Notes under the pieces: generated by a model
Told to the model about the DNA's origin: nothing
What the model saw: the letters and a program-made list of their open reading frames with translations, nothing else
Database searches by the model: none
Part shown: piece after piece, positions 2,831 through 60,329 of the stretch
How the letters are laid out: the number at the start of each line of letters is the position of its first letter
Position numbering within the stretch: position 1 is the first letter of the stretch
Assembly: GCA_050084515.1 (NCBI GenBank)
Contig: CM114271.1
Location: 4,464,001-4,528,000, forward strand
Reading direction: 5' to 3'
DNA from: Blasia pusilla
Taxonomy: Eukaryota
DNA length: 64,000 bases
Program-made: the position numbers and the translations under genes

Positions 2831-3053
2831 GGACCCAGTCTCTTGCGGCTAGCTCCCTGCCTAGTCGCAATGGGGGTCGTTGCGACCGTCTTATAGTAAT
2901 GGTGCAATCTCCTTCTCGTTGGATGGAAATAGATGGTAACACAGTCGCAAAACTTGCGCGAATCGTGTCGCATGAATGCCATCCGTAGGATCAACAAAGA
3001 TCCGGAACGCTCCGGCCGGGTCATGCCGACCTCGGCCTCATGGGGCCGGGTCC
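2831..3053. mobile_element. Tourist/PIF-Harbinger-like MITE (degenerate copy)
   Basis: Left end GGACCCAGTCTCTTG and right end CATGGGGCCGGGTCC followed by TTA. The first ~60 bp align with the reverse complement of the right end of the MITE at 36713-36945. Confidence 0.6.
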
Positions 3054-3276
3054 TTAAGGAAGTCGCGCTTACACTTTCCACGACGTGAAAATTGAAAGCT
3101 CTGCATTCCCATCTCAACTTCGGAAGTTCTAGATAATTTGAAAAGTTGGAGGAAGTTGGGGCTGCTGGAACTCAGCGAGTCCATCCATTAATATATATCA
3201 ACGAGGAATCCCGTATGAGACAAGAGAGACGACTTTAAAAATTGGAGGGTAGTGCGTAGAGGAATCGAGTAATAGA

Positions 3277-12572: not shown

Positions 12573-15315
12573 GCTCCCACGTGGAAGTCACCAAAGTACC
12601 ACTGGTGATGTAGAAGGTGGTGACTAATTCTAGTTGCCCCTCAAAGTCTCTGGTTGGGTTGTCTTCAAAAAATTGTTGTCAGGTCCTCCAAAAGCCAAAA
12701 GTGTGAGATTCGTGCAAATTCAGCAGGATCTGGCCCTCATCCAGGAATGACTTCACCTGATTTATAATCCCCAATCCCTGGGGCAAGTCTTTGACCAATT
12801 GGAGGGTTTATTCCCCCGACTTCATATCCTTGGTTAGCATGTCCCACGACCATCATCATCCATGTTTTCACCAAAGTGGAAGGTGAGCACAAGTAACCAT
12901 TCACACACCCCCATAGTTCTTCGTGGGAAGAATTGGTTTCCCAAGAAGATCTGCTTCTTTCTGTTTCGGAAAGATAATATTAGCATCTAGTCCTTCGGTA
13001 CAGACTTCTGTGCTCACAAAAATCATGTCCAATTGCCTCCTCAAACCATATGTCCCGAGTTGGTTCATAAGCTCTCCACAACCATTTCCTGCAAAAAAAA
13101 CAAAAACGAGTACCTGACTCAGATACAGAAAGTCCAAAACCTATTCCGGTTACAGTTTTGTAGTTAGGTACACATGGGACTATGGTGAATCAACTGACTC
13201 CCTTATCAGGACAACTACCTGAAAATGTGGACAAGAGAGTACTCTGGGCATATCATTCTGGCAGAAAGTTTGAAAGACGGACAAAAATTATCAGACTCGT
13301 CAACAGAAGAGACTAAAACTGCAAACAATATCATCGAAGCTTCCACTTCCTGAGCTCATTCAACAAAGGTGGTCCCTCAGCAATTCGCCACAATTTCATT
13401 GGAATCCCGTGACATGAAATATTCTTAGGCAGCGAGCCACATTCGGAACCTCACAATCTAAAGCTCGGACAGTTGCTAAAATGTCTCGAAATGTATTCAG
13501 CTCTCCTCAGACAGGTGAAAACTGTCCCCCAACATCCTTTTATCGGGGTGGAAGGATTTTCTCAGGGGTCGTACAGATACTGCCAAGAGACACGTTCCTA
13601 CAAAGTTCACGAACGTTGAAGGATGCAGTAGGTCCCCAACAGGCACTAAATTTCATCTGTTTGTAAGCTGCGAACTTCAACAGGAAAGTATGTCTAGCTA
13701 GGCGCAGTTCAGACACAGATACGTGAAAGGAAGACTTCAAATCTCAAAAGACCTCCCAGACTCAACGTGCATATATTTGGTGGGTCAACTCACAGTCGCG
13801 GTATTACACAGATTGTGACTTCGAACTCACGGTATCCATCTCAACTTGTGAGTTAAGGTGCTTGGGCCTAACGTTTTGTATGCCACTAAACATTGGCACG
13901 AAACTTCCTCAGGACAATTACGTGTAGAGGTCATCCAGCTCTACTCTCGATTTCACACAAACACAGTTGGATCCACGTTCATTCGAATGTGTGCGTTTAG
14001 TTCATTACATGATGGTTTGCAATCGTTCATACCATTACGAGATACGTACTACTACACCATAGACGGCTTTTCAAGCAAAATTTACTTACAACCACAACAA
14101 CGTTCAATTTAATCAACGAGGAGGCCAATCAGCCCGAGAAACATTGTTGATCCTGCTCTCCAACTGAAATGTCTGTGGGACCTTGGGGATGAATTGATTG
14201 ACTACGCACAGCGCCGAGCAAGAGCTGGTAAGAATTTCATTTCGAACGAACGGCGACGCAGGTGTGACCTACGAACTTTGAGACAGTGTATGAAACCAGC
14301 GTGTTGAACGCAATTCTAATTCTGCATTCAATGATCCATCCAATAGTCCACTTAACTAGAATAAAGAAGAACTACACAAAAAGGATCGCAACGAGGATTA
14401 AACTTGTTTCCCGAGAGAGCGGCAATGCAATGTTCATCCACCCGAAAAACGACCACAGGCTAATGGACTCGTTCGTCCACTTGCAACACGTATGGTCAGA
14501 GCAGCTGTTCGATGCTAAATATGTTACACAAGCAGAGGACAATAAACCAGACTACGTCGGAGTACGAGAAAGGAAGGAAAAGAAGTCCTCGTTTGAAAAC
14601 ATCTCCTAAAACGTCTATGAAATAAGAAATACTCACAGAAACTTTTCATCCACTCGACCACCCTGTTCCAATACCCTACACAACTCAGCTCCTCAGCTGC
14701 TCAAGTCAATATCACATGTGCACCCGAGCCTGCAACACAGAAACGTGAACTACACTCCTCCTGTCCGTGAACCCTCGTATCCGGCTTCACGTCTCCGGTC
14801 CCCTCGGCTCTGCACTCTGATCGGTACCACCCCACCCCGTCGACAGAAACGGAGTCTTCAACCTTACATGACCGATCTCAATCCAACCACAGTCGCTCTT
14901 CCATCCTCCTCCCGCAGATTCTTCGTCCGGCAAGCCTCGTATTCTTTTAATAAACCTACAATGCCTTCCTTCATTCATGCGTCGCACGCACAGTGCTAGC
15001 ACCACCCCCGTCTCTCTCTCTCCCTCTTTGCGATGCCAAATTTTTTTTTTCGCTCAATCGACCACCGTGGGCCCCTACTACGCAGATTAACGTCATCACT
15101 CCACGAAAATCGCTCTGCCAGACCGTGAGAGCGACCAATTTCCCCGCTCACTCAACAATCAACAAGTGCCGGATGCAAAGGGCGAGGAGAGCGTTCACGG
15201 ATTGATTCACCGCTCGAGTATCTGTCAGCTCCGGGAGTCCAGGGAGAGCATCGAGGAGGAATCGGAACCCGAATATCTTCATAGCGCACTTCCCGAGGTC
15301 ACAACCTACGAGTTT

Positions 15316-15950
15316 ACTTAGCGTAGCACGTTTTATATTAACTGCGGACTAAGTCGAGCGTAGCGCGGTTCATACGAAGTCCGGACTAAGATAAGCGGAG
15401 CGCGGTTAATACTAAGTCTGGACTAAGTGAAGCGGAGCGCGGTCAAAACTAAGTCTGGACTAACTTAAGCGGAGCGCGGTTAAAACTAAGTCTGGAATAA
15501 CTTAAGCGGAGCGCGGTTAATACTAAGTCCAGACTAACTGAAGTGCAGCAGGGTTAGTATTAAGTCCGGACTAAGTTGAGCGTGGCGCGGTTAATACTAA
15601 GTCCGGAGTAGGTTAAGCCGAGCGCGGTTAATACTCGAGTAAGTTAAGCGGAGCGCGGTTAATACTAAGTCCGGACTAAGTTCCGCGTAGCAGGGTTAGT
15701 ACTAAGTCCGGACTCAGTTAAGCGTAGCGTGGTTACTACTTAGTCCGGAGTAGGTTAAGCGGAGCGCGGTTAACACCAAGTCCGGAGTAGGTTAAGAAAA
15801 GCGCGGTTAATACTGAGTCCGGAGTAAGTTAAGCGGATCGCGGTTACTACGAAGTCCGGACTAAGTTAAGCACAGTGCGGATAGTACTAAGTTGGGACTA
15901 AGTTACGCGGAGCGCGGTTTATACTCAGTCCGGACTGAGGTTAATACTCT
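15316..15950. repeat. 37-bp CpG-rich tandem repeat array (~17 copies)
   Basis: Consensus ACTAAGTCCGGACTAAGTTAAGCGGAGCGCGGTTAAT. GCGCGGT recurs at 15363, 15400, 15437 and 15474 (period 37). Each unit contains the palindrome AGTCCGGACT. Confidence 0.93.
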
Positions 15951-16555
15951 GACTAATAACTTAGTTGCGACCTGTGGCACACATAGCGCTGTGATTCTGT
16001 AGGCATCTGTAATAATATGCGCTTTACCTGGTGGTGCAGATGGAGTATCTATCTAGGCTGCAGGGAATCATTCTCCGTAGGTTACATTTATATTTGGCTG
16101 GCTTTTGCCATGTGGGCCCAGCTCCAAGCCTTCTGGGTGCCATGTTATAATTGCCGAACCTAAGGCGTGGAGATCTGTCGTTCGGTAAGTGATGTGGGCC
16201 CCGGCTCCCTGGCTGCTGGACGTCCACCTGGGTGACACGTTATCTTGTGCCGAACCTAAGCCATGGATATCATTCGTTCGGCAGCATTTACCTTCTCCTA
16301 TTTGGTATGTAGTTTTTCTCATTTTAAAGTTTTTTAACAATAGGGGGTGTCAAAGGTCCTCCTAATAGGGGATTCTTGGGCACCTTGAATTGTCCAAGTA
16401 GGGCTTTTGAGTGCTCGTAAATGGGTAGTTTCTCAACTTCTCGTTTTGGTACTTCCCAAGGTTCCGAATTCCCCGCTCCTCCTTTTTCCATCTAGTTTCT
16501 GGTCATAAGTGCGAGGGTGTGCGATTGAGAAGTATTTCTAGATTCTTCAATGTGT

Positions 16556-17198
16556 TGTCGTTGCGCATACACATCGTTACACAACTTATATCGTTGTCAT
16601 CGAACACACACATAAACACACACAATCCCATGTTAACTCATGGCATCCATACACAGAGGCGAGAAGTACCAAAATATCTCCAATTAAAGTAGGATCCAAT
16701 CTCTCTCTACATCATCTCACACCATAGTTCTCAAAGGTGTGCACTCTCTCTCATGTCAAACCAAACCGACTCTCCTAATGAAACGCTTGGCTTACACTCA
16801 CAAGGCAAGGGACCATAGCTCCGCCGCCTCATGCCAAGAGGTTCAACAAAGAGAGAATGAGCTCTCAAGCTCTCTCTCCTTGAGGTATACCCCTCCCCTC
16901 TCCCAAGCTCTCTCCATGGTAACCTATTCTCCCAAGTCACCTCCTTGGCTTTTGACCTGATGTAGGAGGTCAAGAATCAATTACCAAAAATAGAAAGTCG
17001 ATCATTTAATCAACATGATATTTACCTCAAATAGTAAGTTTCTCAATATGGCTCCAAATGAGCCGAAACCAAGGGGAAATCTGCTCTCTCAGGTTTCCCC
17101 GGGCCTCAACAAGTCATCCTCGACCTCTTGGGTCTGTCCTCCACTACTCGTGCAGACGCTCTACTAGATCCCACCGATCTATCCTAATATTTGTGATA
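16556..17198 (-). mobile_element. LTR-like sequence (~640 bp) of the PHD-bearing retrotransposon family
   Basis: Its reverse complement aligns over long blocks with 26589-27179 (e.g. CATTCTCTCTTTGTTGAACCTCTTGGCAT; TTTGGTTTGACATGAGAGAGAG). On the minus strand it starts TATCACA and ends ...GCAACGACA. Confidence 0.7.
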
Positions 17199-17200
17199 GC

Positions 17201-18055
17201 TGTCGTGCGCATACACATCGCTACACAACATACATCGTTGTCATCGAACACACACGATCCCATGTTAACTCACGGCATCCATACACAGAGGCGAGAAGTA
17301 CCAAAATATCTCCAATCACCCCCCTAGCTGGTGGTTAGGTCCCTCTAACTCCAGATAGCCATCTATCCCTACCTACCATGACATACATCTCTAGGGTGCT
17401 AAGAGCATAAAGGTCGGGTGCTCATGTGGCCCCATCGTTAGTCGCCTTCCTATCATCCATGTCACAGAAAAAGTCGGAATCAAAACCTACCTAGTATCTC
17501 CTCTATGTACATCTGGGACACATCCATCGTCCTCGAGGAACCTTAGTGAGAGGTGGCGTCATACATGCCATATGCCAACCTCTCAAACATCCATCATAGA
17601 CTAGCATCGTGGCCGCACCACGAGCAGAACCACACAACATATAACGCAAGCGTGCAGGAACTACTGTTGAGCTCGGATCTACTATACCATCAATGTTAGG
17701 AAGATGACATGACGCACAATTATGCTTATGGTCCTTCCATACCATACCATCGCGTCCCTCCAACAAGAGAACACCAGAGGGCAAAACGTCACACACTCTC
17801 AGAATAGTGCGCCCTACAGTCACATCCAACGTCGGTGTCGTATGCTACAAGTAGACATAATCTCCTTGATGAAACCTCCGGATAGTTGGTCGATAACCAC
17901 CACCCCGAATAGTCGCATACCTCAACGTATCCCGATGCTGCGCAATCGCCAAGTTCTCGAACGCCATGGGCATCACTCTCCAAAATAACTCAGCCCTCTG
18001 AGAACAAGCTCGCATCCATTCATTTGGGTCATCAAGGTCCATGACCTCACCAGCA
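17201..18055 (-). mobile_element. Truncated second copy of the retrotransposon: integrase C-terminus + PHD finger, PPT and partial LTR
   Basis: ORFs 17845..18042 and 17503..17829 are closely similar to ORF 24239..24793 (RVMPMAFENLAIAQHRDTLRYAT; RGWHMACMTPPL..VP.GRWMCPRC). A G-rich PPT-like tract lies at ~17318-17326, followed by the last ~115 bp of the LTR. Confidence 0.88.
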
Positions 18056-18488
18056 TATCGACGACCTCACCATTATCTCGGCTTTCTCTCATTCAAAATT
18101 AGTAAAAATTCTCATTATTTTTGGCTAATCTTGCAAACAAAAAAATGAAGGTTGTATATTGAGAGTGAGCTCTATTAACATGCAATAGAAGTAAAACCAA
18201 CTTTTGTTACTTTGAGTTTGTTTTGTGAATCCTCTAAGAATGTCAGAAAAAAAGACCCCATTTGGTTTGCAATAAAATTGTAGACTGTGAGTGAAGTACA
18301 ATATTTAGCAAGTTACCAGCTCTTAAATTTGTGAGTATCTTTCGTGTAATCTAAGAGTACTTGGAGAGTCTTGAGACTTGTGAAATGGGTACATTTCTAG
18401 TAGGGAATGCTATCATTATCTTCGTCACTATCATACACCATATATAGTCTAAGGGCATCTCTACTCCACTATACATAGTGAATAGTTG

Positions 18489-21400
18489 TGTCACATCTGA
18501 GTAGCCGATAGGTCAAGATCTATCATGGATAGGGCATAGGAGCCAGCGGACTATCTTGAGTGTAACTTTGTCCCGTAGTGTCGGATGAGGTTGAGGATAG
18601 GTCCGTTGTGTCAGGAACGTCGTTTCTGACAACTTTCCTCTTGGGGTCTTTCACAACCGGGTGACTTATTGAGCAAGTCACCCGCCCTTGGTAACCTATG
18701 GGCATAGGTTATCACAAGGATAGCTATTTTTTAGGGGAAGAGCCTTTTGGCTCTTCCCAACCCTATATAAGGAAGGAAGATGGCTTTCCCAAGCCATCTT
18801 TCTCATGTTGGGCCGTTGGAGTACCATTCTTGCTCGCGTGTGTGAGTTAGAACTAGGTGCTAGAGTCTGGATTCCTTGATAGCACATGGTGGACAAGGCT
18901 CGATATGCCGATGTAGATTGAGGAGTGGAGTTTTAGGTTGGGTGTGCCGGTTTTACTACTCTTTATTTTTACATGAGAAAGATGTCAGGGGACTTGTGGA
19001 AATTTGTTGTTTGCATGTAGGCAAGCGAGTTGCCTCGGTCGGGAGCTCCTAGAGATGCGTGTGTTGCGGCCGTTGGTCAATTTTATGTTCGGAAGGCCGT
19101 GGGCAGAAGTGCTATCCATTTTTCTCAGATTTTGCTGGTGGAGGTTTACGAGGGAGAACAACAAAGTGGGGGTCACGCAAGAGCGCTCGGGTGCAGCGCA
19201 GAATGTTGGAGCGTCGAGAGAACGGCGCACAGCGGGAGCGTAGAAAGAAGACAGTGAGAGCTTGTAGGCCAACCCCTTGGCCCCCTTTTTCCCTTACGTA
19301 GTTGCAAGCGCCGTGGTCGGCGCCTTCTCGCCGTGGAGGGGCGGATGTGGTAGGGGTAGGGCGGTGGACATAGTTGGATGACAAGTTAGAGGCGCGGGTG
19401 ACGTGATAGACGGTCTGACATGGTTGAGTTTGGCCGGGGTTGAGTTGAGGTTACAAGGTGCGTCTAGGGATGGGCGGAGAGATTTTCAAGACGTGATGTT
19501 TCTCGAGCGTGGCGGGGATTTGAGAGGATTCTAATGGAGACATACACGCCAATGCTGATGGGAGGTTTGACGTGTTGGTCGAGGAGAGTGTTGTGTTGCG
19601 GAGGTTGTCATATCACATGGAGGAGTGGATGTTGACGGTGCCGTAGGTTGGAGGGCACAATCAGGTTATCCATTCGAGTCCCTTTTCCCGCACTTATCTT
19701 ATGTGATTGAGAGGGCTGGATGTCGTGTAGTTGTTGGGGCTAGATGCGTGTAGCGATGGTGACAAGTCTAGTCTCCATGTATGTGTAGCATGTTGATATA
19801 CGGAGGTTGCCAAGTAGGGATCACGTGTATGACCCAAGAGTATCAGTGGTTTAGGTGAATTAGTTGGGAGGCTCATGGTGAGCCCGAGTGTTGAGTGTGA
19901 GTGAGGTCGGGTGTGTCGTCACGGGATTACCATTAGTGTCGGTGAGCTGGTGAGGAGTGTGGCAGACGGAGGAGTGTCACTTGGCATGAGATGGACGACA
20001 TGGGCCATCGGGGCATGCGTTGTTTCTTGGATACAGTGGGCACCATTAGCTTAGATGATTTTATCTATGAGTTCAAGACGTGGTGCGACTTCCAGAAGAT
20101 ACGGACCCCGACACGGTTCAACCCTTTCATAACATGGAAGGGGTTGTTCCAGCACTTGGAGGGTCCTCTGATGGATGACTATATGGATTTTTGATCATTG
20201 TATTTAGTAGAGATCGATGCTTGGAGGATGTATTGGGCTCTAGGGTATGTATCCACTAGTGGTCGCAAGGCATATGATGGGATCGTGAGAGGAGAGAGAC
20301 CCACACCATCAACCCGGAGACTAGATGGAGAGGAGGCCAATGAGACAAGTGATGTGGCAGAGACCTCTGGTGGTAAAGGGCCACCCAGCTTTAGTTCCAT
20401 AGTGGAGTTCTTCCGAAAGTTGGGGACGAGCTACCAGAGCGTATGCACCGACAAGATGAAGAGTCTACAAGATTTTCAGTGACGATCGGGTGAGATTCTG
20501 AGAGAGGCATTCACCCGCATGAGGAGGTTGATCATTGCTACTTATGGAGTGACTGAAGCGCAGTCAATCTAGTATTGGTACAGGGTTCTGAACCGAGAAC
20601 TACGGAGGAGAGTCCGAGATGCAGTGCTGACTCACATAGCAAAGCCCACATTGAAGGTGGTCTTCGAGTTGTCAGCGTGTATTGAGCTCAACATGAGTGA
20701 GGAGCATGTAGTGACCGCTGGATTTTCTCGAGAGTCAACAAGTCCACGAGCGACGGTGATCCCATAAGTGCCACAGCAAGCACCAGTACCACGGGAGCGG
20801 GCCAATGTGCCTAGAGAGCAGGGCGGGTACCGTGAGCCTATGAGGCAACGACCCGTACCTACATATGTTGCCCAACAGGGACCAATGTTGTCTTGTTGGA
20901 GGTGTGGAGGGGACCATAGGCAGAGAGACTGCACACAGCATGGGAGAGGACCACGAGCGCCTGTGATTGCTCGGGATCCACAGAGGATGGCCCCACCATA
21001 GTACCACTGTGACTATTGCCACAGATATGGTCACACTAGGGATAGATGTTTTGACCTTTGTGGAGAGGCACGTCTAGAGGTAGGCCGATGGCCTGGGGGC
21101 GGTCGTCTTGGAGGAAGTTGGGGAGTTGTTCCTGGACATGGTGGTAGAGGACCACCACCAGCCAGAGGAGATTCAGCATGAGCACCAGAGCCGGCACTTC
21201 TCTCACGCATCGATCAGTTGGAGCAGAGGATTTCTGCCATGACGATGATGCATCTCAGGGAAGGCACGGAGCCGCGAGCAACTAGTGTGGCTCCAGCTTC
21301 TACCTCTCACCCTGACTCGGGTGAGGATCTGCTAGTATGGGGTTTATGTGTAATGCAGCTTAGGTTGAGGCTGATGCAGTGGTGATTTCGAGTGTTACGA

Positions 21401-24400
21401 GAGGCAGTGAGCCATCGAGAGGTGGAGTTGAGATTGACCGAGCGAGGAGACCGATGGGCAGCAGGCCAGGGTTCCAAAGTCATTCACATTGTCGAAGGCA
21501 CTACACACACCGTCGATGGTGCCTTGACAACCACCGGTGCCTACAAGTGAGGCGGGTGCGTCAACGTCACAAGAAGTTTGAGTGATAACTCCTATGTGGG
21601 CTTGAGGGGAGTCAATGTCGACCACAGTGTTGGAGGTGGCCACCAGAGTGAGCCAGACTCCGATATTTTCTGCCATAGAATTGGCAACGTTGGGAGTTGG
21701 ACCAGTTGAGGTGTTCTAACTGGCCACCATGTTGTGTGATCGTGGAGAGATGACTGCCTCTTGTTCAGAGGTAGTTGAGGAGGTGGTGGACTTGCCCTTG
21801 AAGCAGGTACTCGAGACGTCCCCCACAGAGTCATGGCATGCGGCGGCGGCGGCGAAGTTGGTAGATATTCTAGCTTGACCGGCCATAGAGCGAGAAATGG
21901 TGACAACTAGCATAGTGTTATTGGATAACCGAGCTTGAGTATTTCGCTTAGTTAGTCCGACGGGGACAACTTACCACCTGCAGCGCGTCCTACTTGATTC
22001 GGGAGCGCAACCCTTGATGTTAGGGAAGGCAGCATGTTTAGCGTTGGGGTTACGGAAGGCCGACATTGAGCCTTGTCCCTTCCAAATACAGTCCTCGATT
22101 GGGGGCGTATCGCCCATGTAGTATATGACTCGACACGAGATAGTTGTCAGAGTCCAGCCAGAGCATATGACGGATAGTGCTATGGTGCGCACACGTGCGA
22201 TTACGACACCAGCTGAGTCGTACAATGTGTTGGTGTGGGAATACAGTGTTATATCCCCTAGGATTCATCCTTGACTTATAGGAGGAGACCGTTGCTTATT
22301 GGCCAGGGTGGCGGTCAGGTGATGGGCGGATGAGTCAGTTACCCGCGCAGTTTGCGGGACAAGATGGTCGATCACGAGACGAGTCCGTGACCACGTTGGC
22401 AACTTTCACATATATTGTTAGCTGGCCAGGAGAGTTGTTGGAGGGGAACGCACATACGGAGGATGTCCCAATAGCGGCTAGTCCCACGGAGAGACATGCC
22501 ATGGCGGGTGTCTCTTCCCATGTTGGCGAGACCTCTTCACCATTGTGGGGTACAACTCGAGAGCTACAGAGGAGTGTCGACGACCTTGTAACGCAGGCGT
22601 GGAGTCATGCCTTTATCCTAGAGTAGTGAGAGTCAGGTGGCAATCGGGCCCCTGGAGTGGAGATGTTGACCTCATTGGATACCACACCCATTGTGTGGCA
22701 GTGTCCAGACAAGGGTGTTAGATCTCTTCAGAGGGATTAGCACCGGATTGGCTGCGATATTGCAGGCAGGCATACAGGTGCATCGGTACCTTTATGTGGA
22801 GAGAGATGAGACCGCGTGGCGAGTATCAATATGTCACATGGCAAGATTGGTCCGAAGGTATCATGAGTTGTTGCTGGTATCAACGGTACGGGGATATCAG
22901 CATACACTACGCGCCAACATCTCTTTGGTGGGGACGCAAGATCTGGATAGAGTTGAGGCCATTCATTTGGTGATTTTTGGATGACCATGTCAGGGTCATT
23001 CACACTTATCACTGATCATCAACCGTTGAGGTGGTTGATGGAGTCGGACAAGCTTACGGGAAAGCTTGCCAGATGGGCTCTATTACTACATGAGTATGAG
23101 TTCAAGGTGGTTCACATGCGAGGTTGGCTGAACCAAGATGCGGATGGGTTGAGTCGTAACCCATGTCTGAGTCAGAGAGATGACATAGGAGCTCAATGGC
23201 ACGGAGAGAGTGATGAAGAGATGATGCCCGGTTGGCATATATGCATCTGCCTATCTTTGTTGGTTGACTATGGTATGTCAGCTACATGTGATGACTCTAG
23301 TGGTGGGGTCGGATGATGAGTCTTTGGATCCGGAGGTTAGTGAGAAGGCGACATGTGGTCATGATATCCATGACGATGTGGAGGTTGTGGAGTTCTTGCG
23401 CATTGGCATCATAGCGAGCATAGTGAGTGCTAGGGAACGGAATCGGATCCTAAAGAGAGCCAGGAGGTTCAGGTGGGAGGGGACTCACATTTTGCAGGTA
23501 TGGGGAGATGGTAGGATACAAGTGGTACCTCATCCTTCCTAGCGAGCACGTGTACTGCAACATGTCCATGAGGAGTTGGGGCATTTTGGAATAAAGCATA
23601 CTTACAGCTTACTCCAGGTTCAGTATCGATGGCGCGGTAGTATAGCAGTTTGTGGCCAAATGTATGGTATGTGATAGAGTTCGAGCATCCTTCAATGCTC
23701 CCACTCTGTAGTTACATCCTTTTTCAATTATGGGTTAGGTTATCGGTGGAGTTTAGACTTTGCGGGACCTTTGCCATTGACGGGGCGTCATCATAGATAC
23801 GTGTTGGTCATGGTAGAGCATTTCTCCAAGTGGATAGAGTTGGTGGCACTATCGGACAAGGCGAGCAAGGGAATAGCTTATGCGTTTCTAGATCGTGTGC
23901 TTAGTCACTTTGGTATATCGGCGGAGGTGTTGACTGACCAGGGTATTGAGTTCAGGGGAGATTTTCAGGCCTTGTGTGATTAGACGTTGATAGATCACCA
24001 CACCACGTCCATAGATCATCCTGAGGTGGATGGGTTGGTGGAGAGAGTAGTACAAACGGTGAAGGGAGGATTGCGCAAGTATGGCTTGCAGCAGGGACAA
24101 TTAAGGGAGTGAGACCTACAGTTACCATGGTTGGCTATGGGTTATCGCTTTAGTCGGTAGGCATCCTTGGCGTCATTTTCACCATACTTTTTGCTCTTTG
24201 GGAGAGAGCCAACTTTACCTACAACTATTTGAGGTGACATGGTGGAAGTGTTAGATCTTGATGATCCAGATGTGTGGGTACAAGCGTGTTCTCAAAGGGC
24301 GGAGATTTTTTGTAGAGTTATGCCTATGGCCTTTGAGAACTTAGCTATTGCTCAGCATAGAGATACATTGAGGTACGCGACCATTTGTGGAGGAGGTTAT

Positions 24401-25006
24401 CGTCCACGGATTAGGAGGTTTCATCTTGGAGATTACGTGTATTTACAGCAGGCGTTACCCACAACGCTAGATGTCACAACACGGCGTACGATCCTACGTG
24501 TGTGTGAGGTATTATTGACCGGAGTCCTCATGTTGGAGGGACGGGATTGTATGGTTTGGAAGGATCATGTGCGCAATTGTGCACCATATCATCTTTCGAA
24601 CATGGACAGAAGAGTGGAACCGAGCTTGGCAGTGATACTTGCAGGCTTGAGGTGTATGTTGTGGGGATCTACGAGGGGTGAAGCCACCATGTTGGTATGT
24701 GATGGTTCTTCTCGAGGATGGCATATGTCATGTCCGACCCCCCCTTTTGATGTAGTTCCCACAAGACGATGGATGTGTCCGAGATGTGTCTAGGGTAGTA
24801 GGTCATGTCAGGGAGATGTGATATTTTCTATTTGGAGTTAGGGGGATCCAACTACCGGCTAGGGGGGCGGTTGTGTGATCTCCATGTATATGTATGAGTT
24901 GATTTATGGACATGTGTAGATCTACCCGTGTGTGGGAAAGATCGATGTTGTGTGGTGTGGATGTGACCAGTGATGTATGTTGTGTAGCGATGTGTATGTG
25001 CACGAA
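18489..25006 (+). mobile_element. Decayed Ty3/Gypsy-order LTR retrotransposon: gag-protease-C5 DNA methyltransferase-[RT deleted]-RNase H-integrase-PHD
   Basis: Gag-like ORF pieces from ~19991 with two zinc knuckles (CWRCGGDHRQRDC; CDYCHRYGHTRDRC). Protease LLDSGA at 21990. DNMT motifs at 22715-23002. RNase H C-terminus FTLITDHQPLRWL...KLARWALLLHEYEFKVVH. Integrase HEELGHFG, YVLVMVEHFSKWIE and VLTDQGIEF. C-terminal PHD. PPT AGGGGGGCGG at ~24861. Many stops and frameshifts. The left boundary is uncertain. Confidence 0.9.
22715..23002 (+). pseudogene. C5 cytosine DNA methyltransferase domain fragment (motifs I-IV) within retrotransposon pol
   Basis: Motif I VLDLFRGISTG, motif II-like YLYVERD and motif III-like ANISL. 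In the same frame, HLVIFG-TGA-PCQGHS (GGA TGA CCA TGT CAG GGT CAT TCA) corresponds to the catalytic motif IV GxPCQxxS. Confidence 0.85.
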
Positions 25007-25029
25007 AATTGCCTTGTGTAATTGCTGGG

Positions 25030-25345
25030 AGATGAAATCTTTCCCACCAAAAATTCTAAAGGATTCTCTAACATATGGGTCCAGAAATTTTTTAAAGGTG
25101 ACTTACAAGTGTCTTTTGAGTAATCCAAGAGTACTTGGCGGCTCTAAGGACTTGTGAACTGAGTAAGTTTCTAGTGGTGAATGTTGTCATAATTAATATA
25201 CCATATATAACCTAAGGGCATCCCCAATCCACCATACAAAGAGGATGGCTAGCTTATCCAAACTATCGATAGATGAAATCTTTCCCATCAAGCACTCTAA
25301 AGGATTCTTTAACATAGAGGTTTGAAAGTTTTCAAAGGTGATGGA
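25030..25345. repeat. ~242-bp tandem repeat, with a further related unit at ~18300-18520
   Basis: GATGAAATCTTTCCCA..TCTAAAGGATTCT..AAAGGTGA occurs at ~25031 and ~25273. GTAATC[CT]AAGAGTACTTGG and ACCATATATA..CTAAGGGCATC are shared between ~18345-18475 and ~25120-25240. Confidence 0.7.
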
Positions 25346-26588
25346 AAAAAACATGCACATATACATGATCTAGTATTGGATATATGATGCACCATGGGAT
25401 CTAAAAACAATTCCATTTAAGTCCATATTCTACTTATTTACATAGTAGAATATGGATGACTCATAAATATCCAATCATCCACCTATGCATGTTGTATTAT
25501 TACTCCAACACAACCATTAAATTCAATGAGAGAGTGGAATTTTTGTTTTGGTGGGATAGGAGTGAAGACTATGTATTTCTATGGATTTTTCCAATGTGGG
25601 AACTCATTGCTAAATTTCGAGTCCCAATGTGGAGATGCCCTAATAACATTGTTTCTACTATTGTTGAAGTTAGGTTTTGAGGGGGACTCTTCTTCTTATG
25701 CCTTTTGGAGACCTTGGAGTTTATTTCTCTTTGAATACCCCCTATTTAAATTATTCATAGATTCTTTCATGCACATCACTTACATAATTTATATTTTTTC
25801 TTTCAACACGTCATAATATGATGCATATTCTATGATCATCATACAGTTCACATAGTATTAAAAGGTTACATTTACTAATTTAATGTACCCCTACAACGTA
25901 AACAAGGGCATTTTAATAATCTATACTATTAAGGGATTATAAGTTATTGATTTTCCAACATCTCTCTACTTGACATATGAAAATGAGGTTGCAAGAAAAT
26001 GATTTGGTAGCAGGGGCTGAATTTTAAAAAACAAAATTTTGGGTGTATGATTATTGGTCATGTGATGTGTTATAGTATTTCTTATTCAAGAACTTTCCCA
26101 ATAATCATCTACCTTACTTAATTCAAGGAGGGAGAAAAAAAAACTAGTGTATAGCCTATGCTATGCACAAGACTAAATATCATCTGTTTGATTTTTCTTG
26201 AAAAAAATGCCTTGAAACCAAAGTAGTAAAGTATTTTCTTGCTGCATGTTGCCATGTATTAAATAGAGAGGTGTTAGCAAATCAAACAATTATCCTACTA
26301 ATATAGATTCATACTTTTTTTAAAGCCTAGCCAACTCGTTGTTGTTGAGCAAGAGTAGCATTGTGTTCTACCTTCTACTAATGAACAATCCTTTGTCGAA
26401 AAGCTTTTGCATATCGAATTATGTGGTGGTTTTTGATCCGACAGGTTTTGACTTGGTGTGTAGGACTAGTCATACTAAAGGTTTCATGACCAATTTAATA
26501 GTGAGAAATGAGGATTTAAATTATGTGGTGAGACATCTGACCAATGGATTATTCTTTTTGTAATGGAAGTTTTTTCGGCACTCACATA

Positions 26589-26948
26589 TGTTACATCCTC
26601 TAGGATGGATCGACGGAGATAGTAGGTTTTCCCCTTCGGTTTGGCTCAATGGAAGTTATATAGAGAAACTTACTATTTTGGGTAAATTTTGATTAGAAGT
26701 ATAGTTGAATTTCCACTTTGGGAAGTGGTCCTTGACCCTAGAATAGGTTAAAAACCAAGAAGGTGACGTGCGAGCATAAGTTAATATGGAGAGAGTTTGG
26801 GAGAGAAAAGGGGGTATACCTAAAGGGAGGGAGTTTTGGAATTCATTCTCTCTTTGTTGAACCTCTTGGCATAAGACGGCAGAGCTATGATCCTCGTTGC
26901 CTTATGAGTAGCCCAAGCCTCTCACTAGGAGAGTGTGTTTGGTTTGAC

Positions 26949-27009
<61 letters not shown>

Positions 27010-27179
27010 AGATGGAGTTTGCATAAGAGCTTTTGATTGATCCTGATTTGATTGGAGACATCTTGGTATATAATCGTCTCGGCGTTCAGATGCCATGAGT
27101 GAGTATGGTTTCTTACATGTTTGTATTTATAGTCGATAACAACGATGTATGTTGTGTAGCGATGTATATGCCCACTTCA
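26589..27179 (+). mobile_element. Solo LTR (TG...CA) containing a (GA)n tract
   Basis: Starts TGTTACATC and ends GATGTATGTTGTGTAGCGATGTATATGCCCACTTCA, the same terminal block as at 24972-25006 and the minus-strand copies. CATA flanks both sides (possible TSD). (GA)n at ~26951-27006. Confidence 0.72.
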
Positions 27180-28245: not shown

Positions 28246-28946
28246 TTTTGTTATGAGTCGTACTATTAATGCTGGATAGGGCAACAGGCGAACCTGGCTC
28301 ACCGACCCTCACCTTCTGCGACGTCGCGTTGTTCCGATCGCGATCGTCGTGGAAAAACAGCGCGACGTCGCGACAGCGAAGTCTGGAGGACTAGGGCTTA
28401 CAAGTTTTCTCTGGAAGTTCGAACGTTTGAGGAGGCGAGGAGTTGTAGATTCGGACAATTTCACAGAACATGGGCTTCCCTTCTCCAATAGTGTAGCTCG
28501 GATGTTTGATATCGGCCGCCTCAAGGTTGAGAATAGCATTCCAGTTTCGCATCTCCGGTTCCTTAGCGCGTCGTAGGCATGGAACGCGAATCCAAAAATT
28601 TTATGTGGAGAGGTTGGCAACAAATTTGCGGTCCTTTTAGTCCCGCGGAAGTGTCGGGGGTATTTCTGCCATCTATCTAAATCGCTTCTGTGTATTGCGC
28701 TCGACTTTCAATTTGTGATCTTCCGAAATTAGTTTGGTCTTTGGCTTTCCTTCCAGCTACTGAATCTTGAATTTTTGTTCATTTCATATTTTGTTTACGC
28801 TTGCAGTGAGATTTCTGCTGATTAAGGCATCGCGAGGGAGCTGGTGATGCAAATTCGCGTGAGACAGAGCGAAGTGGCGGTGCTCGCGACCTTGGAGCGT
28901 AGCTACTGCTGAATTTTCAGAGCCGATCATCAGATTATCGGGTTAT

Positions 28947-30569
28947 ATGATGCCTTCGGCGGCGATTTTCAGTCCCGTTGAGGAGTCGTGTTCTGGAGAG
29001 GGCTCGGAGGAGATAGTAGCGGTGAAGGAGAGGTGCGAGGAATGTAGCGTTGAGGAAGCTAAGTATCGGTGCCCGGGCTGTGATTTGCGGTCCTGTGGTG
29101 TGCAGTGTGTGAAAGCGCACAAAGAGCGTACAAAGTGCAACGGAAAGCGGAAGCGCACCTCTTTTGTCAACATCAATCACTACGATGACAATTGGCTCAT
29201 TTCTGATTACAATCTCTTGGAGGAGACACTGAGACAAGCAGATGCTGCGAAGCGACTCAGAGAACCATTGGCTGCAAGCAAGAATGAGCTTCACCCCGCC
29301 CTCAAGGCATTGCAGAAGCAGGCGAAGAGTAGATCCACCACGCTTCTGTATGTTGCTCATGGGATGACAAGGAGAAAGACCAACACATCTTATTACGACA
29401 GAAAGTAAGTCCAGTTCCACTGATCGGTGTTATCTTAACCACAGTGTCCCATGAGCGATTTCTCGGTTTTAATTCTCAGACCCTTGAAAGTCTGAACAGT
29501 TAGAAGCCAGCGAGCTCAGCCACTTCCTGTGACCTAAACCCCTTCCTATCCCTTAGAGTGATGTGGAGCTTACTCTCTCCATCGGTTCCCCTTAAGATGC
29601 ACGTTTCGATTTTGGGTGAGAATCTTTACACAACCAGTCCGATTCTGATCTTGTGGTGGTCGATTCCCTGATTCTCCAAGGTTGATTTCTCGGTAGCCTT
29701 GTGCTCCACCCCATTTTAATTCATGCCTCTTCCTCAGGACCAAGCGCATATTCTGGAGAGTCGAGTGGGTCTTTGAAGGAACAGATCTCCGACTTGTGGA
29801 CGAAAGGTGAGTTTGTTCTCCCATTACCTCCTGTGATAAGCTGTGAGGGTGGGAGATGTGATGGGAATCTAGTTTTGGACGAATTTTTCCTTGAGTGAGT
29901 CGAATGTCGCAAGCAATTATTGCCACTTTGGGGAGCAGAGTTTGAACGCACGTCTCTTGTATTTGTGCGCAGAGTGGATGAGAATCTGAATCTAGGAGAT
30001 GTGCTTGCGAAGCACTTGACCCACGAAGGAGAAACCGCAATGGTAGGACATCGGTTGAGGAACTTTCGGTGGCAGCCATTAAGTGAACTCAAGTTGGTGT
30101 TGCCGAAAGAACAGTGCTCGGTATGAGTTCGAATCTCTGGTCTCAATAGTAGGAAGTTTGAACATTGCCTTAAATCCATCCGAACAAAACTGCAGAATTT
30201 TTTTCTTCTTGTGCGCATCTCAAGTACGCAATAAACTCCTCTTAGCATTTGTGTGACTCTCCTAATATCGTCGAGGATCATGCAATGCAGGCAGCAAATA
30301 AGGAATACTATGGCCTCAGTCTGACAGAAACACTCCGAGATCAGTTAGCAGACAAGTCCATCATAGAGTATCCTATCATCCATGTTCTTCTTCCTGCGGC
30401 TGCCGGGAAGTACGCACTTGTGGTGAAGCCACCTCCCAAAGTGCCCGATCAAGCACCGGAAGATGTGCCCTCCACTCCAACCCTTCAAGAACCTGAAGGG
30501 GTGCCCTTACGGGAGGAAGAGTTTGAGGAGGGTGAATGTGAAATTGAGGAAGGTGAAATTCTCCCCTAA
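28947..30569 (+). CDS. BCD1: zf-HIT box C/D snoRNA assembly protein (BCD1/ZNHIT6-like), 4 coding exons
   Basis: zf-HIT CEECSVEEAKYRCPGCDLRSCGVQCVKAHKERTKC, followed by LISDYNLLEE, GMTRRKTNTSYYD, IFWRVEWVF and TLRDQLADKSIIEYPIIHV. Exons 28947-29404, 29738-29806, 29973-30120 and 30291-30569 join in frame across GT-AG introns. Confidence 0.9.
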
Positions 30570-59380: not shown

Positions 59381-60329
59381 TCTGCACTGGCGTCGTCTCT
59401 GCCATACACTCAAAAATCGTCGATCGAAACTCCACAGACAACCTTCAACTCCTCCACTAATTCACCAGACGAAACACGAGTGCACCTCAGAACCAAACTT
59501 ATACAACGGCAGGAGCTAGCTAGAAACTATACCACCGAATCAACTCCCACAACTCAACCAAAAAAGCGCATACGCTGACGATTAGGTTTCTCTACGCCGT
59601 AACAGACTCCACAATCGGAGGCAAAAACAGTCACCAGACGAAACCAAAAACATTCACAACAACGCAGTGCCCTCGAAATTCACACACCTGAAAAAGCAGT
59701 TGGTTCACAACGAAACTACTCCCCCCGCCGGGAGAAAAACTTCCAATTCCTCCCGAATTCGCGGCGCTGCGTCACGGTAACCTCGACTACCCTTCCGGCG
59801 CCACACGACCGAGGGCCGGAGCCGAGAGAAGAGTCGAGGAAGAGAGGGCAGAGAAGCGAGCCACGACGAGCGGGAGCGAGAGCGGGAGAGGAGAGGAGGT
59901 CGGTGTGCGCTCGCGACACGGCGACGACGACGAAGTGTCCCCGCGCTGGCACAGGAGTATGTATGTACTGGCGCTGGTCGTGTTTGGCACAGGCTACAAC
60001 TCTGGCCACGTCACGAATGAACTGAACGCTCATGACCTAATAATAAGATTCCCCGGCGCGGACGTGTAAGGGAACGGTTCAAGCAAAGCCATACGCTCTG
60101 CATGCAAACTATATTTTTTTTCTTTTGTTTTAAGTGGTGTGGGTTGTTTATAATATATATTCAGCTAATTTATATTATTAAAAGAGGATGGGGTTTGAAA
60201 AATTTTTATATTTTTGTCTCCTCTTGTGATATTGAGTTTAGGCATAACATGTGATGCATCCTTTCACCTATGCATATCACCCGCAATATACTAATGTAAG
60301 AATAAGGTAAGAGTGAGATAGTGACTTTA

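What the first reader, a model, noticed from the sequence alone, without database searches (positions are those of the whole stretch)
21900..24793. Land-plant LTR retrotransposon carrying its own C5 DNA methyltransferase inside pol
Seen: a DNMT domain lies between the protease (LLDSGA, 21990) and the RNase H/integrase. It shows motif I VLDLFRGISTG at 22715. Hidden behind a probable TGG>TGA stop that truncates the ORF track is the catalytic motif LVIFG*PCQGHS (PC at 22985-22990). Established: FxGxG-type motif I and GxPCQxxS motif IV define C5 cytosine methyltransferases. DNMT-carrying retrotransposons have been reported from Symbiodinium dinoflagellates and the charophyte Klebsormidium, but they are not a standard part of land-plant Ty3/Gypsy lineages. 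Inference: the family once encoded a methylation writer that could methylate its own cDNA or insertion site, and it may be a streptophyte lineage persisting in an embryophyte. This copy is dead.
Basis: partly seen in the sequence, partly recalled or inferred. Interest (0 to 1): 0.9.

Follow-up and report, generated by a model that had tools for sequence, protein, structure and literature searches.

The report
Dead liverwort retrotransposon carrying DNMT3-type methyltransferase
This is a decayed, internally deleted copy of a liverwort Ty3/gypsy retrotransposon whose family encodes its own DNMT3-like DNA cytosine methyltransferase between protease and reverse transcriptase, a kind so far described in print only for a charophyte alga and dinoflagellates.

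Summary
At 22715-23002 (+) the frame reads VLDLFRGISTG ... LVIFG-TGA-PCQGHS, and the TGA aligns to Trp in 5 of 5 relatives. Pfam does not recognise the 127-aa fragment. Its homologues (E 1e-29 to 1e-21, 54-67% identity) carry PF00145 in 11 of 18 cases. The family enzyme is DNMT3-like by sequence and by fold.

The domain is not a one-off capture. Marchantia, Calypogeia, Sphagnum, Closterium and Mesostigma proteins, and 80 metagenome loci, show gag-PR-DNMT-RT-RH-INT-PHD. PR lies upstream in 47 of 60 loci and RT downstream in 51 of 56. A host helicase places the window in a Marchantia-like liverwort.

The window copy is dead. It has 24 in-frame stops and five frame changes. A roughly 2.2-kb deletion at 22998-23002 removed DNMT motifs VI-X, RT and most of RNase H.

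The kind is known (KnitGypsy-Dnmt3, de Mendoza 2018). Nine literature searches found no report for bryophytes. Catalysis and self-methylation remain inferred.

The parts
18334..18524 (+). Candidate 5' LTR remnant
   Evidence: Direct repeat with 25108-25284: 73% over 145 nt by blastn, extended to about 190 nt by local alignment. Its position about 1.5 kb upstream of gag fits relatives L040 and L073, where gag starts about 1.2 kb after a roughly 340-nt LTR. The ends are not defined. No TSD, PBS or TG..CA was sought.
19991..21316 (+). gag remnant with a CCHC knuckle (CWRCGGDHRQRDC in ORF 20768-21001)
   Evidence: tblastn with Marchantia P0020 residues 1-425, 44.5% identity. Six in-frame stops. 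No Pfam hit on the X read-through.
21438..22235 (+). Protease region (LLDSGA at 21990-22007)
   Evidence: tblastn with P0020 462-718 and P0009 117-355, 40-44% identity. Seven in-frame stops. Relatives hit Asp_protease_2 / gag-asp_proteas weakly.
22237..22714 (+). PR-DNMT linker conserved in the family
   Evidence: tblastn with P0020 719-881 and P0005 152-315, 41-43% identity. Three stops.
22715..23002 (+). N-terminal third of the DNMT3-type methyltransferase domain (motifs I to IV), with TGA at 22982-22984 in place of Trp
   Evidence: It is 61-64% identical to Marchantia and Calypogeia copies. It sits inside a 100* liverwort clade of 11 rows.
22998..23002 (+). Deletion breakpoint: a median of 2225 nt present in relatives is missing here (DNMT motifs VI-X, RT, most of RNase H)
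   Evidence: DNA alignments to relatives start at 22998-23005 and DNMT protein alignments end at 22999-23011. Missing length has median 2225 nt, range 1869-3173, over 31 loci.
22999..23220 (+). C-terminal end of the RT-associated RNase H domain
   Evidence: PF17917 profile positions 71-105 of 105, E 2.4e-8. tblastn with P0027 1066-1139, 69% identity.
23264..24230 (+). Integrase (H2C2 zinc-binding domain and rve core), decayed
   Evidence: Integrase_H2C2 E 9.7e-7 and rve E 1.2e-12 on the X read-through. tblastn with P0066 995-1513. Seven stops between 23264 and 24787.
24233..24793 (+). Integrase C-terminal extension ending in a PHD finger (about 24650-24790); two zinc ligands are substituted relative to relatives
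   Evidence: PF00628 E 3.3e-6 and E 4.4e-5. The same C-terminal PHD occurs in relatives P0359, P0053 and P0066.
24973..25011 (+). Short block similar to the stretch just upstream of the 3' LTR of relative L040 (possible polypurine-tract region)
   Evidence: blastn, 82% over 39 nt, E 5e-5. Weak; a lead only.
25108..25284 (+). Candidate 3' LTR remnant
   Evidence: Pairs with 18334-18524. It lies about 315 nt after the PHD end, as in L040 and L073.
17509..18048 (-). Second, truncated copy of the same family (integrase C-terminus and PHD only), tail-to-tail with the main copy
   Evidence: 73% nt identity to 24254-24787. tblastn with P0066 1333-1513, 54% identity. PHD matches CHD4, PHF12 and KDM5 PHD fingers, E 2e-14 and weaker.

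Best explanation
Window about 18.3-25.3 kb (+) is an old, dead copy of a liverwort Ty3/gypsy-type LTR retrotransposon. Intact family members are about 9 kb and encode gag(CCHC)-protease-DNMT3-like C5 methyltransferase-RT-RNase H-integrase-PHD finger.

Shown:
- The 96 codons at 22715-23002 are the N-terminal third (motifs I-IV) of that methyltransferase.
- A roughly 2.2-kb internal deletion at 22998-23002 removed the rest of the enzyme, the RT and most of RNase H.
- The remainder carries 24 stops and several frameshifts, so this locus encodes nothing functional.
- The methyltransferase is an integral, positionally fixed module of the family in liverworts, a moss and streptophyte algae.
- It has a DNMT3A/B-like sequence and predicted fold. 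The catalytic Cys (PCQ) and Glu (ENV) are invariant across 51 aligned family proteins.

Inferred for intact copies:
- The enzyme is made as part of Gag-Pol, released by the protease, and acts as a de novo cytosine methyltransferase on the element's own cDNA or new insertion. I put about 0.5 on catalytic activity and about 0.3 on self-methylation being its role.
- The integrase-borne PHD finger tethers integration to a particular histone H3 tail state.
For: Motifs and stop.

Homologues: 18 hits at E <= 0.01, 17 of them E 1e-29 to 1e-21, and 11 of 18 with PF00145. With the intact relative P0004 there were 58 longer hits. Sixteen are named Marchantia polymorpha, and single hits are named Calypogeia fissa, Sphagnum fallax and Haematococcus, with eukprot labels Mesvir1 and Chrzof1. 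P0109 is named Closterium sp. NIES-68.

Family size: 4268 representatives at E <= 1e-3 and 269 at E <= 1e-30.

Domain order DNMT before RT: Marchantia P0027 and P0033. Single ORFs P0359 (2811 aa, PR-DNMT-RT-RH-INT-PHD) and P0362 (2327 aa, CCHC-PR-DNMT-RT-RH-INT). Of 220 database proteins, 56 have this order. In metagenome loci PR lies upstream in 47 of 60 and RT downstream in 51 of 56.

LTR pairs of about 340 nt, 86% and 91% identical, spaced about 9.1 kb apart in L040 and L073.

DNMT3 type: PDB phmmer best hit is the DNMT3A catalytic domain at E 6e-12, DNMT3B 1e-9, DRM 1e-8 to 1e-4, bacterial HaeIII/HhaI about 1e-3. AF2 model pLDDT 91.7. All 33 listed Foldseek rows are DNMT3A/B/C; best E 3.4e-18, target-normalised TM 0.83.

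Invariant C140 and E183; near-invariant R223 and R225.

DNMT dN/dS median 0.55 over 729 pairs of 39 copies, between gag (0.64) and PR (0.46).

Decay of the window copy.

Host is a liverwort.
Against: Pfam gives no PF00145 hit for the window fragment at E <= 1.

No whole genome was held, so other copies in the same genome were not examined.

All 80 metagenome loci are decayed. The longest + strand ORF is 508 aa, and DNMT is uninterrupted in only 2 of 80.

DNMT dN/dS (0.55) is higher than RT, RH and INT (0.34-0.39). The pairs are not independent and the copies are dead.

The window's LTRs are only about 190-nt remnants at about 73% identity, with no defined ends.

Activity is unproven. In the only published assay the K. 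nitens Gypsy-Dnmt3 domain gave no methylation in yeast, which the authors called inconclusive (PMC5890265, section 10).

No labelled host DNMT1, CMT, DRM or DNMT3 sequences, and no Klebsormidium sequence, were available for a rooted tree.
Confidence: 0.88

Rival explanations
1. One-off capture: a fragment of a host DNMT3 gene was inserted into, or assembled next to, a single ordinary gypsy copy.
For: Only one DNMT-bearing copy occurs in this 64-kb window. The fragment is short and Pfam-negative.
Against: The same PR-linker-DNMT arrangement, colinear with window 21438-23005, occurs in proteins from Marchantia, Calypogeia and Sphagnum and in unnamed sources. PR lies upstream in 47 of 60 loci and RT downstream in 51 of 56. 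Single ORFs span PR-DNMT-RT-RH-INT-PHD.
Confidence: 0.02
2. Chance resemblance: the FxGxS and PCQ strings arose by chance in decayed retrotransposon sequence.
For: No Pfam hit on the fragment.
Against: E 1e-29 over 76-78% of the 127-aa query against 5.8 billion proteins, 54-67% identity. The window row is 64% identical to P0004 over 100 aligned columns and falls within a 100* liverwort clade.
Confidence: 0.01
3. The family's DNMT module is retained but no longer catalytic. It would serve as a DNA- or chromatin-binding or structural part of the polyprotein (as DNMT3L is a non-catalytic partner in mammals; recalled).
For: The KnitGypsy-Dnmt3 domain gave no methylation in yeast (PMC5890265, section 10). 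DNMT dN/dS (0.55) is looser than RT, RH and INT. Marchantia copy P0023 lacks ten residues including the CQ of motif IV.
Against: The catalytic Cys and the ENV Glu are invariant, and the motif VIII arginines near-invariant, in 51 aligned family proteins down to 31% identity. All six motif blocks are visible in both architectures. The yeast negative was judged inconclusive because human DNMT3B also failed there.
Confidence: 0.2
4. The window copy belongs to a non-autonomous deletion-derivative subfamily that spread with the 2.2-kb deletion already in place, rather than being deleted after insertion.
For: The breakpoint is clean: left and right homology overlap by a few bases. Marchantia gene model P0031 also goes from DNMT almost directly to RNase H and INT. 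That may be a splicing artefact of the model, and its DNMT is complete.
Against: None of the 80 related loci shows DNMT followed directly by the RNase H end. Those loci come from other, unnamed sources, so this is weak evidence. It could not be tested in the host genome.
Confidence: 0.12

Closest known systems
KnitGypsy-Dnmt3 of Klebsormidium nitens (de Mendoza et al. 2018, PMC5890265; abstract and sections 9, 10 and 15 read)
   Same: A DNMT3-type, non-rearranged C5 methyltransferase inside the Pol ORF of an LTR Gypsy element in a streptophyte. The paper reports purifying selection on the domain (Ka/Ks < 0.2). Here dN/dS is below 1 (0.55).
   Different: The host here is an embryophyte (liverwort). 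Relatives occur in Marchantia, Calypogeia and Sphagnum, and a C-terminal PHD finger is present. The paper's legend says the K. nitens repeats are DIRS-like. Here two relatives have ordinary direct LTRs.
Green-algal RT-RH-DNMT-INT-PHD polyproteins (architecture B; named members Haematococcus lacustris and the eukprot label Chrzof1)
   Same: Homologous DNMT3-like domain, 31-43% identical to the liverwort type. Same gypsy-type RT/RH/INT and the same C-terminal PHD.
   Different: The DNMT lies between RNase H and integrase, not between protease and RT. In DNMT trees the two architectures are separated by one branch: 100* in FastTree with 178 rows and in IQ-TREE quick with 58 rows.
SymbioDIRS-Dnmt3 and SymbioLINE-DNMT of Symbiodinium (PMC5890265)
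   Same: A retrotransposon-encoded C5 DNMT. SymbioDIRS-Dnmt3 is also DNMT3-type and methylates CG de novo in yeast (section 10).
   Different: Other retrotransposon classes (DIRS, LINE), a dinoflagellate host, and independent acquisition according to the paper.
EpiLTRs (bioRxiv 10.64898/2026.05.21.726589; passages read)
   Same: Ty3/gypsy-like LTR elements that carry a cytosine DNMT plus a chromatin-reader domain.
   Different: EpiLTRs also carry a DAM adenine methyltransferase and a chromodomain. Their DNMT is sister to DNMT4, and in Cymbomonas it is appended at the 3' end of pol. No DAM or chromodomain was found here.
[quoted passage not shown]
   Same: A histone-tail reader domain fused to the integrase C-terminus, thought to steer integration.
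Host DNMT3A/B catalytic domain (PDB 6w89, 6f57, 6u8p and others)
   Same: Best sequence match (E 6e-12) and best fold match (E 3.4e-18, TMt 0.83). Motifs I, IV, VI, VIII, IX and X are in DNMT3 order, not DRM-rearranged.
   Different: 20-23% identity. No PWWP or ADD domain. It is embedded in a retrotransposon polyprotein. It has an extra insert of about 60-70 residues between motifs VIII and IX relative to DNMT3A (query 368 aa against a 285-aa target; TMq 0.66 against TMt 0.83).

Membership tests
C5 cytosine DNA methyltransferase (Pfam PF00145) | HMM match above the gathering score | tested here: not met
   Window fragment P0001: no PF00145 hit at E <= 1. The family does meet it: P0004 42.7, P0005 35.2, P0009 51.3, P0020 35.6 and P0362 48.2 bits, against a cut-off of 22.
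C5 cytosine DNA methyltransferase (Pfam PF00145) | Motif I (FxGxG-type AdoMet loop) and motif IV (PCQ with the catalytic Cys) | tested here: met
   The window has LFRGISTG and (TGA)PCQGHS. They align to LFGGISTG and GWPCQGH in relatives. The Cys is invariant in 51 family proteins. The motif names are recalled knowledge.
C5 cytosine DNA methyltransferase (Pfam PF00145) | Motifs VI (ENV), VIII (RxR), IX and X | tested here: not met
   Absent from the window copy because of the roughly 2.2-kb deletion. Present in relatives as ILENV, AHRxRxWW, ERERAMGF and LGQAMD.
DNMT3 subfamily | Closest solved relatives by sequence and fold are DNMT3 catalytic domains; motif order not rearranged as in DRM | tested here: met
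   Tested on family member P0004, not on the window fragment. DNMT3A E 6e-12 against DRM 1e-8 to 1e-4 and bacterial enzymes about 1e-3. All 33 listed Foldseek rows are DNMT3A/B/C. The motifs are colinear with DNMT3A (alignment).
DNMT3 subfamily | Phylogenetic placement within DNMT3 against labelled DNMT1, CMT, DRM, DNMT2, DNMT5 and bacterial outgroups | not tested
My trees hold only TE-type sequences and are unrooted.
Ty3/gypsy LTR retrotransposon | pol order PR-RT-RH-INT with gypsy-type RT/RNase H (RVT_1, RT_RNaseH) and rve integrase | tested here: met
   Met by the family: P0359, P0362, P0027 and P0033 and the loci. The window retains PR, the RNase H end and INT, but the RT is deleted.
Ty3/gypsy LTR retrotransposon | Flanking direct long terminal repeats | tested here: inconclusive
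   The window has only a 145-190-nt direct repeat at about 73% identity, 18334-18524 and 25108-25284. Clear 340-nt LTR pairs were found in 2 of the 10 long relatives examined, L040 and L073.
KnitGypsy-Dnmt3 (de Mendoza 2018) | DNMT3-type domain within the Pol ORF of an LTR Gypsy element of a streptophyte | tested here: met
KnitGypsy-Dnmt3 (de Mendoza 2018) | Sequence or phylogenetic kinship with the K. nitens elements, and the same domain order | not testable with these tools
   No K. nitens protein appeared among the named hits. Figures and supplements of PMC5890265 are not held.
Chromovirus | Chromodomain at the integrase C-terminus | tested here: not met
   A PHD finger (PF00628) is found instead. 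No chromodomain hit in the window or in P0359, P0362, P0053 or P0065.

The most novel reading that the evidence does not exclude
A single Ty3/gypsy lineage carrying a catalytically active DNMT3-type writer together with an H3-tail-reading PHD finger may have persisted vertically through streptophyte evolution, from Mesostigma and Zygnematophyceae to liverworts and mosses. It may have been transposing recently in the model liverwort Marchantia polymorpha. If so, part of the de novo methylation seen on young elements in bryophytes would be laid down by the transposon's own enzyme. Its algal sister lineage carries the same module at another place in pol (RT-RH-DNMT-INT), which would show that the writer moved within pol once.
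Probability: 0.3. Interest if true: 0.75.

Novelty: new member of a known kind. Interest (0 to 1): 0.6.

Why it matters
Retrotransposons that carry a DNA methylation writer overturn the usual picture of methylation as a purely host-side defence. The published cases are in algae that are hard to manipulate, and the streptophyte example gave no activity in the one assay done.

This family occurs in liverworts and a moss. Sixteen named Marchantia polymorpha proteins belong to it, and copies on two chromosomes are 93% identical. That would move the question into a genetically tractable land plant: is the enzyme active, what does it methylate, and does this help the element or the host?

It also matters for annotation. 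These polyproteins are filed as hypothetical proteins or as 'DNA (cytosine-5)-methyltransferase', so they could be miscounted as host DNMT genes.

The window copy itself is a fossil with no function.

Tried and rejected
- Pfam on the read-through fragment and on X read-throughs of gag and PR: no hits. This was uninformative because the fragment lacks motif VI onward.
- Whole-genome search: no genome is held.
- Search for intact elements among 80 metagenome loci: none. The longest + strand ORF is 508 aa (the first attempt, used a 600-aa threshold and listed nothing).
- Cross-species LTR matching from L040 and L073 to the window: only 35-68-nt blocks next to the LTR. No LTR body match.
- LTR search in 10 long loci: clear pairs in only 2.
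- One-off capture, chance resemblance and chromovirus membership were considered and rejected (see rivals and membership tests).
- ESM Atlas: it confirms only 'C5 methylase', with a mix of streptophyte and phage clusters. Nothing was added.
- Literature: nine full-text searches and passages of PMC12344493, 10.64898/2026.05.21.726589, PMC6673714 and PMC5784723 gave no report of a DNMT-carrying retrotransposon in a bryophyte or other land plant. Subscription journals and supplements are outside that search.
- Not used: RNA or read evidence (look-up of sequencing runs, read laying) and complex prediction. They could not bear on a dead copy.
Full report
**1. Observation**

- ORF 21939-22121 holds LLDSGA from 21990.
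- The frame opening at 22670 reads ...RVLDLFRGISTGLAAILQAGIQVHRYLYVERDE...LVIFG, then TGA (22982-22984), then PCQGHS.
- In alignments with five relatives the TGA stands opposite Trp of a conserved GWPCQG block. TGG>TGA is therefore the right reading.
- Immediately downstream, in another frame, come the last 35 positions of the RT-RNase H profile PF17917 (E 2.4e-8), then an rve integrase core and a PHD finger.

**2. Is it a methyltransferase?**

Pfam gives no PF00145 hit for the 127-aa read-through at E <= 1. That does not refute the reading.

The fragment finds 18 longer proteins at E <= 0.01, 17 of them at E 1e-29 to 1e-21 and 54-67% identity. Eleven of the 18 carry PF00145. In those relatives the Pfam match lies over profile positions 57-157, which is motif IV onward. 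That is exactly the part missing from the window.

The intact relative P0004 (368 aa) gives these results:
- It matches solved DNMT3A catalytic domains best (E 6e-12). DNMT3B follows at 1e-9, plant DRM at 1e-8 to 1e-4, and bacterial HaeIII/HhaI near 1e-3.
- An AlphaFold2 model built on 51 family sequences is confident (pLDDT 91.7, pTM 0.90).
- All 33 listed Foldseek PDB rows are DNMT3A/B/C. The best has E 3.4e-18 and a target-normalised TM of 0.83.
- In the 51-sequence alignment the catalytic Cys of PCQ and the Glu of ENV are invariant. The two motif VIII arginines are nearly so.
- Blocks for motifs I, IV, VI, VIII, IX and X are visible in DNMT3 order.

**3. Is the domain part of the retrotransposon family?**

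Yes. Relatives align colinearly with window 21438-23005 through gag end, protease, linker and DNMT.

With P0004 as query, 58 longer proteins were found. Sixteen are named Marchantia polymorpha. Single proteins are named Calypogeia fissa, Sphagnum fallax and Haematococcus lacustris, and two carry the eukprot labels Mesvir1 and Chrzof1. I read these labels as Mesostigma viride and Chromochloris zofingiensis, from recall. A further relative is named Closterium sp. NIES-68.

Evidence on domain order:
- Pfam puts DNMT before RVT_1 and RNase H in Marchantia P0027 and P0033.
- Two single ORFs span the whole set. P0359 (2811 aa) has PR-DNMT-RT-RH-INT(H2C2, rve)-PHD. P0362 (2327 aa) has CCHC-PR-DNMT-RT-RH-INT.
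- A scan of metagenome contigs found 160 stretches that encode a relative, and 80 loci were kept.
- In those loci a protease match lies within 1.2 kb upstream of the DNMT in 47 of the 60 loci with at least 900 nt upstream. An RT match lies within 1.8 kb downstream in 51 of the 56 loci with at least 1300 nt downstream. The misses are truncated copies and one rearranged group.
- Two loci show direct LTR pairs of about 340 nt (86% and 91% identical) spaced about 9.1 kb apart.
- An exhaustive phmmer run counts 4268 cluster representatives at E <= 1e-3 and 269 at E <= 1e-30. Many are polyproteins of 1000-3400 aa.

**4. Two architectures**

Among 220 retrieved proteins:
- 56 have DNMT after PR and/or before RT (type A, as in the window).
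- 75 have RT-RH before the DNMT, and 19 more have DNMT directly before INT (type B).
- 70 hold the DNMT alone.

In DNMT trees, type B is one side of a single strongly supported branch. This holds in FastTree with 178 rows (a 117-row clade, 100*) and in IQ-TREE quick with 58 rows (28 B against 30 others, 100*, one change). Both trees are unrooted and hold no host enzymes.

The named type A members are streptophytes: liverworts, Sphagnum, Closterium and Mesostigma. The named type B members are chlorophytes. The window's fragment falls in a 100* clade of 11 rows with the Marchantia and Calypogeia copies.

**5. State of the window copy**

- Along the homology path there are 24 in-frame stops, and the frame runs 2, 3, 1, 2, 1, 2.
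- Ten of the 25 stop positions tabulated stand where at least one relative has Arg, Trp or Gln.
- DNA alignments to more than 20 relatives begin sharply at 22998-23005, while the DNMT alignment ends at 22999-23011.
- Relative to 31 loci, a median of 2225 nt (range 1869-3173) is missing. The lost part is DNMT motifs VI-X, the RT and most of RNase H. The apparent PR-DNMT-RNase H order is therefore a deletion artefact.
- LTRs survive only as a repeat of about 190 nt at about 73% identity, at 18334-18524 and 25108-25284. Their positions fit the family layout.
- A second, truncated copy (integrase C-terminus and PHD) lies inverted at 17509-18048.

The host is a Marchantia-like liverwort. A 1277-codon DEAD-box helicase ORF in the window is 97% identical to M. 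paleacea, 94-95% to Calypogeia and Riccia, and 91% to Sphagnum.

**6. How it most likely works (intact family; inferred)**

The methyltransferase is translated within Gag-Pol between protease and RT. It would be released by the protease.

Conservation of the catalytic residues and dN/dS below 1 argue that the domain was kept for a function while the family was active. The median is 0.55 over 729 non-independent pairs of 39 decayed copies, against gag 0.64, PR 0.46, RT 0.39, RH 0.34 and INT 0.36.

The published idea is self-methylation of the retrotranscribed DNA (PMC5890265, abstract). In that paper a Symbiodinium DIRS-Dnmt3 domain methylated CG de novo in yeast. The K. nitens Gypsy-Dnmt3 domain did not, and the authors called that inconclusive (section 10). 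I put about 0.5 on catalytic activity and about 0.3 on self-methylation as the role.

The integrase PHD finger is most like CHD4, PHF12, KDM5, PHF21A, ATXR5 and AIRE fingers. From recall, those mostly read unmethylated H3K4. It may steer integration as chromodomains do in chromoviruses (PMC6673714, Discussion). None of this applies to the window copy, which is a fossil.

**7. Comparison with what is known, and novelty**

The kind is known. KnitGypsy-Dnmt3 is a DNMT3-type domain in the Pol of an LTR Gypsy element of the charophyte Klebsormidium nitens (PMC5890265, section 9). Later texts speak of 'streptophytes (Gypsy-DNMT3)' and cite only that paper.

Nine full-text searches, and passages of a Marchantia methylome paper, gave no report for a bryophyte or any land plant. 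Subscription journals, figures and supplements were not searchable. In particular the species list and Fig. 4b and 4c of PMC5890265 were not visible.

I could not compare with K. nitens sequences. Membership in the same family is therefore untested, although the defining description is met.

I rate this as a new member of a known kind: an embryophyte branch of the streptophyte Gypsy-DNMT3 elements, with a PHD finger and a fixed PR-DNMT-RT order.

**8. Limits**

- No host genome and no earlier notes.
- No rooted tree with host enzymes.
- Taxon names rest on the few database proteins that carry names.
- Some Marchantia proteins are gene models that may be mis-spliced.
- The dN/dS values come from dead copies and a simple Nei-Gojobori count.

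Noticed in passing
window 16555-17318 and 26628-27175: Downstream of the truncated minus-strand copy lies a block R1-X-R2. R1 (17201-17316) and R2 (16556-16684) are 86% identical direct repeats. X plus R recurs in inverted orientation at 26628-27175 (73-78% identity), about 1.8 kb beyond the main copy's PHD. R1 and R2 match the stretch just before the 3' LTR of relatives L040 and L073. This may be LTR or PPT debris of a second subfamily.
   Followed up: partly
window 15235-16008: Tandem array with a 37-nt period: at least 11 overlapping register copies, 62-78% identical.
   Followed up: no
window 55631-59461 (-): Uninterrupted 1277-codon ORF for a DEAD-box RNA helicase (RH42 / PRP5 / DDX46-like). 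It is 97% identical to Marchantia paleacea over residues 480-1000, and was used to place the window in a liverwort.
   Followed up: yes
window 18000-26000: G exceeds C on the element's sense strand: GC skew +0.17 to +0.26, and -0.18 over the inverted fragment. Of the 25 stop positions tabulated, 10 align to Arg, Trp or Gln in at least one relative. That is the pattern expected from C-to-T or G-to-A decay of methylated DNA.
   Followed up: partly
L055, L057, L058, L067, L068, L070, L071, L072: Eight loci, 42-48% identical to P0004, share one odd layout. A minus-strand PR-DNMT ... RT-RH-INT element has a plus-strand DNMT-RT segment in its middle. This looks like an internal inversion that was propagated, or the same locus sampled repeatedly.
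   Followed up: no
proteins P0050-P0068 and others (architecture B): A large clade of polyproteins up to 3456 aa has the order RT-RH-DNMT-INT-PHD: 75 of 220 proteins, plus 19 with DNMT directly before INT. It forms a 117-row 100* clade. Named members are Haematococcus lacustris and the eukprot label Chrzof1. I found no description of it in the papers searched.
   Followed up: partly
protein P0065 (eukprot label Chrzof1), residues 737-780: A G-patch domain (PF01585, E 5e-5) lies between the DNMT and the integrase of this algal polyprotein.
   Followed up: no
proteins P0020 (Mp_4g09160) and P0023 (Mp_6g11220): Two Marchantia polymorpha gag-PR-DNMT proteins from different chromosomes are 93% identical over 1279 columns. 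P0023 lacks ten residues that include the CQ of motif IV, and 21 residues in the gag zinc-knuckle region. This suggests fairly recent copies, not all with an intact active site.
   Followed up: partly
window 17503-17700 (-) and family PHD fingers: The integrase PHD finger is most like CHD4 PHD2, PHF12, KDM5A/B PHD1, PHF21A, ATXR5 and AIRE (E 2e-14 to 6e-9). From recall, these fingers mostly read unmethylated H3K4. That would parallel the ADD domain of host DNMT3.
   Followed up: partly
window 6824-11208 (-), 28863-29408 (+), 26925-27026: By eye, further host-like ORFs: RCC1-repeat-like exons (SWGNGSNYQLG...), a zinc-finger ORF (CEECS...YRCPGC), and a GA/CT microsatellite. None was tested.
   Followed up: no
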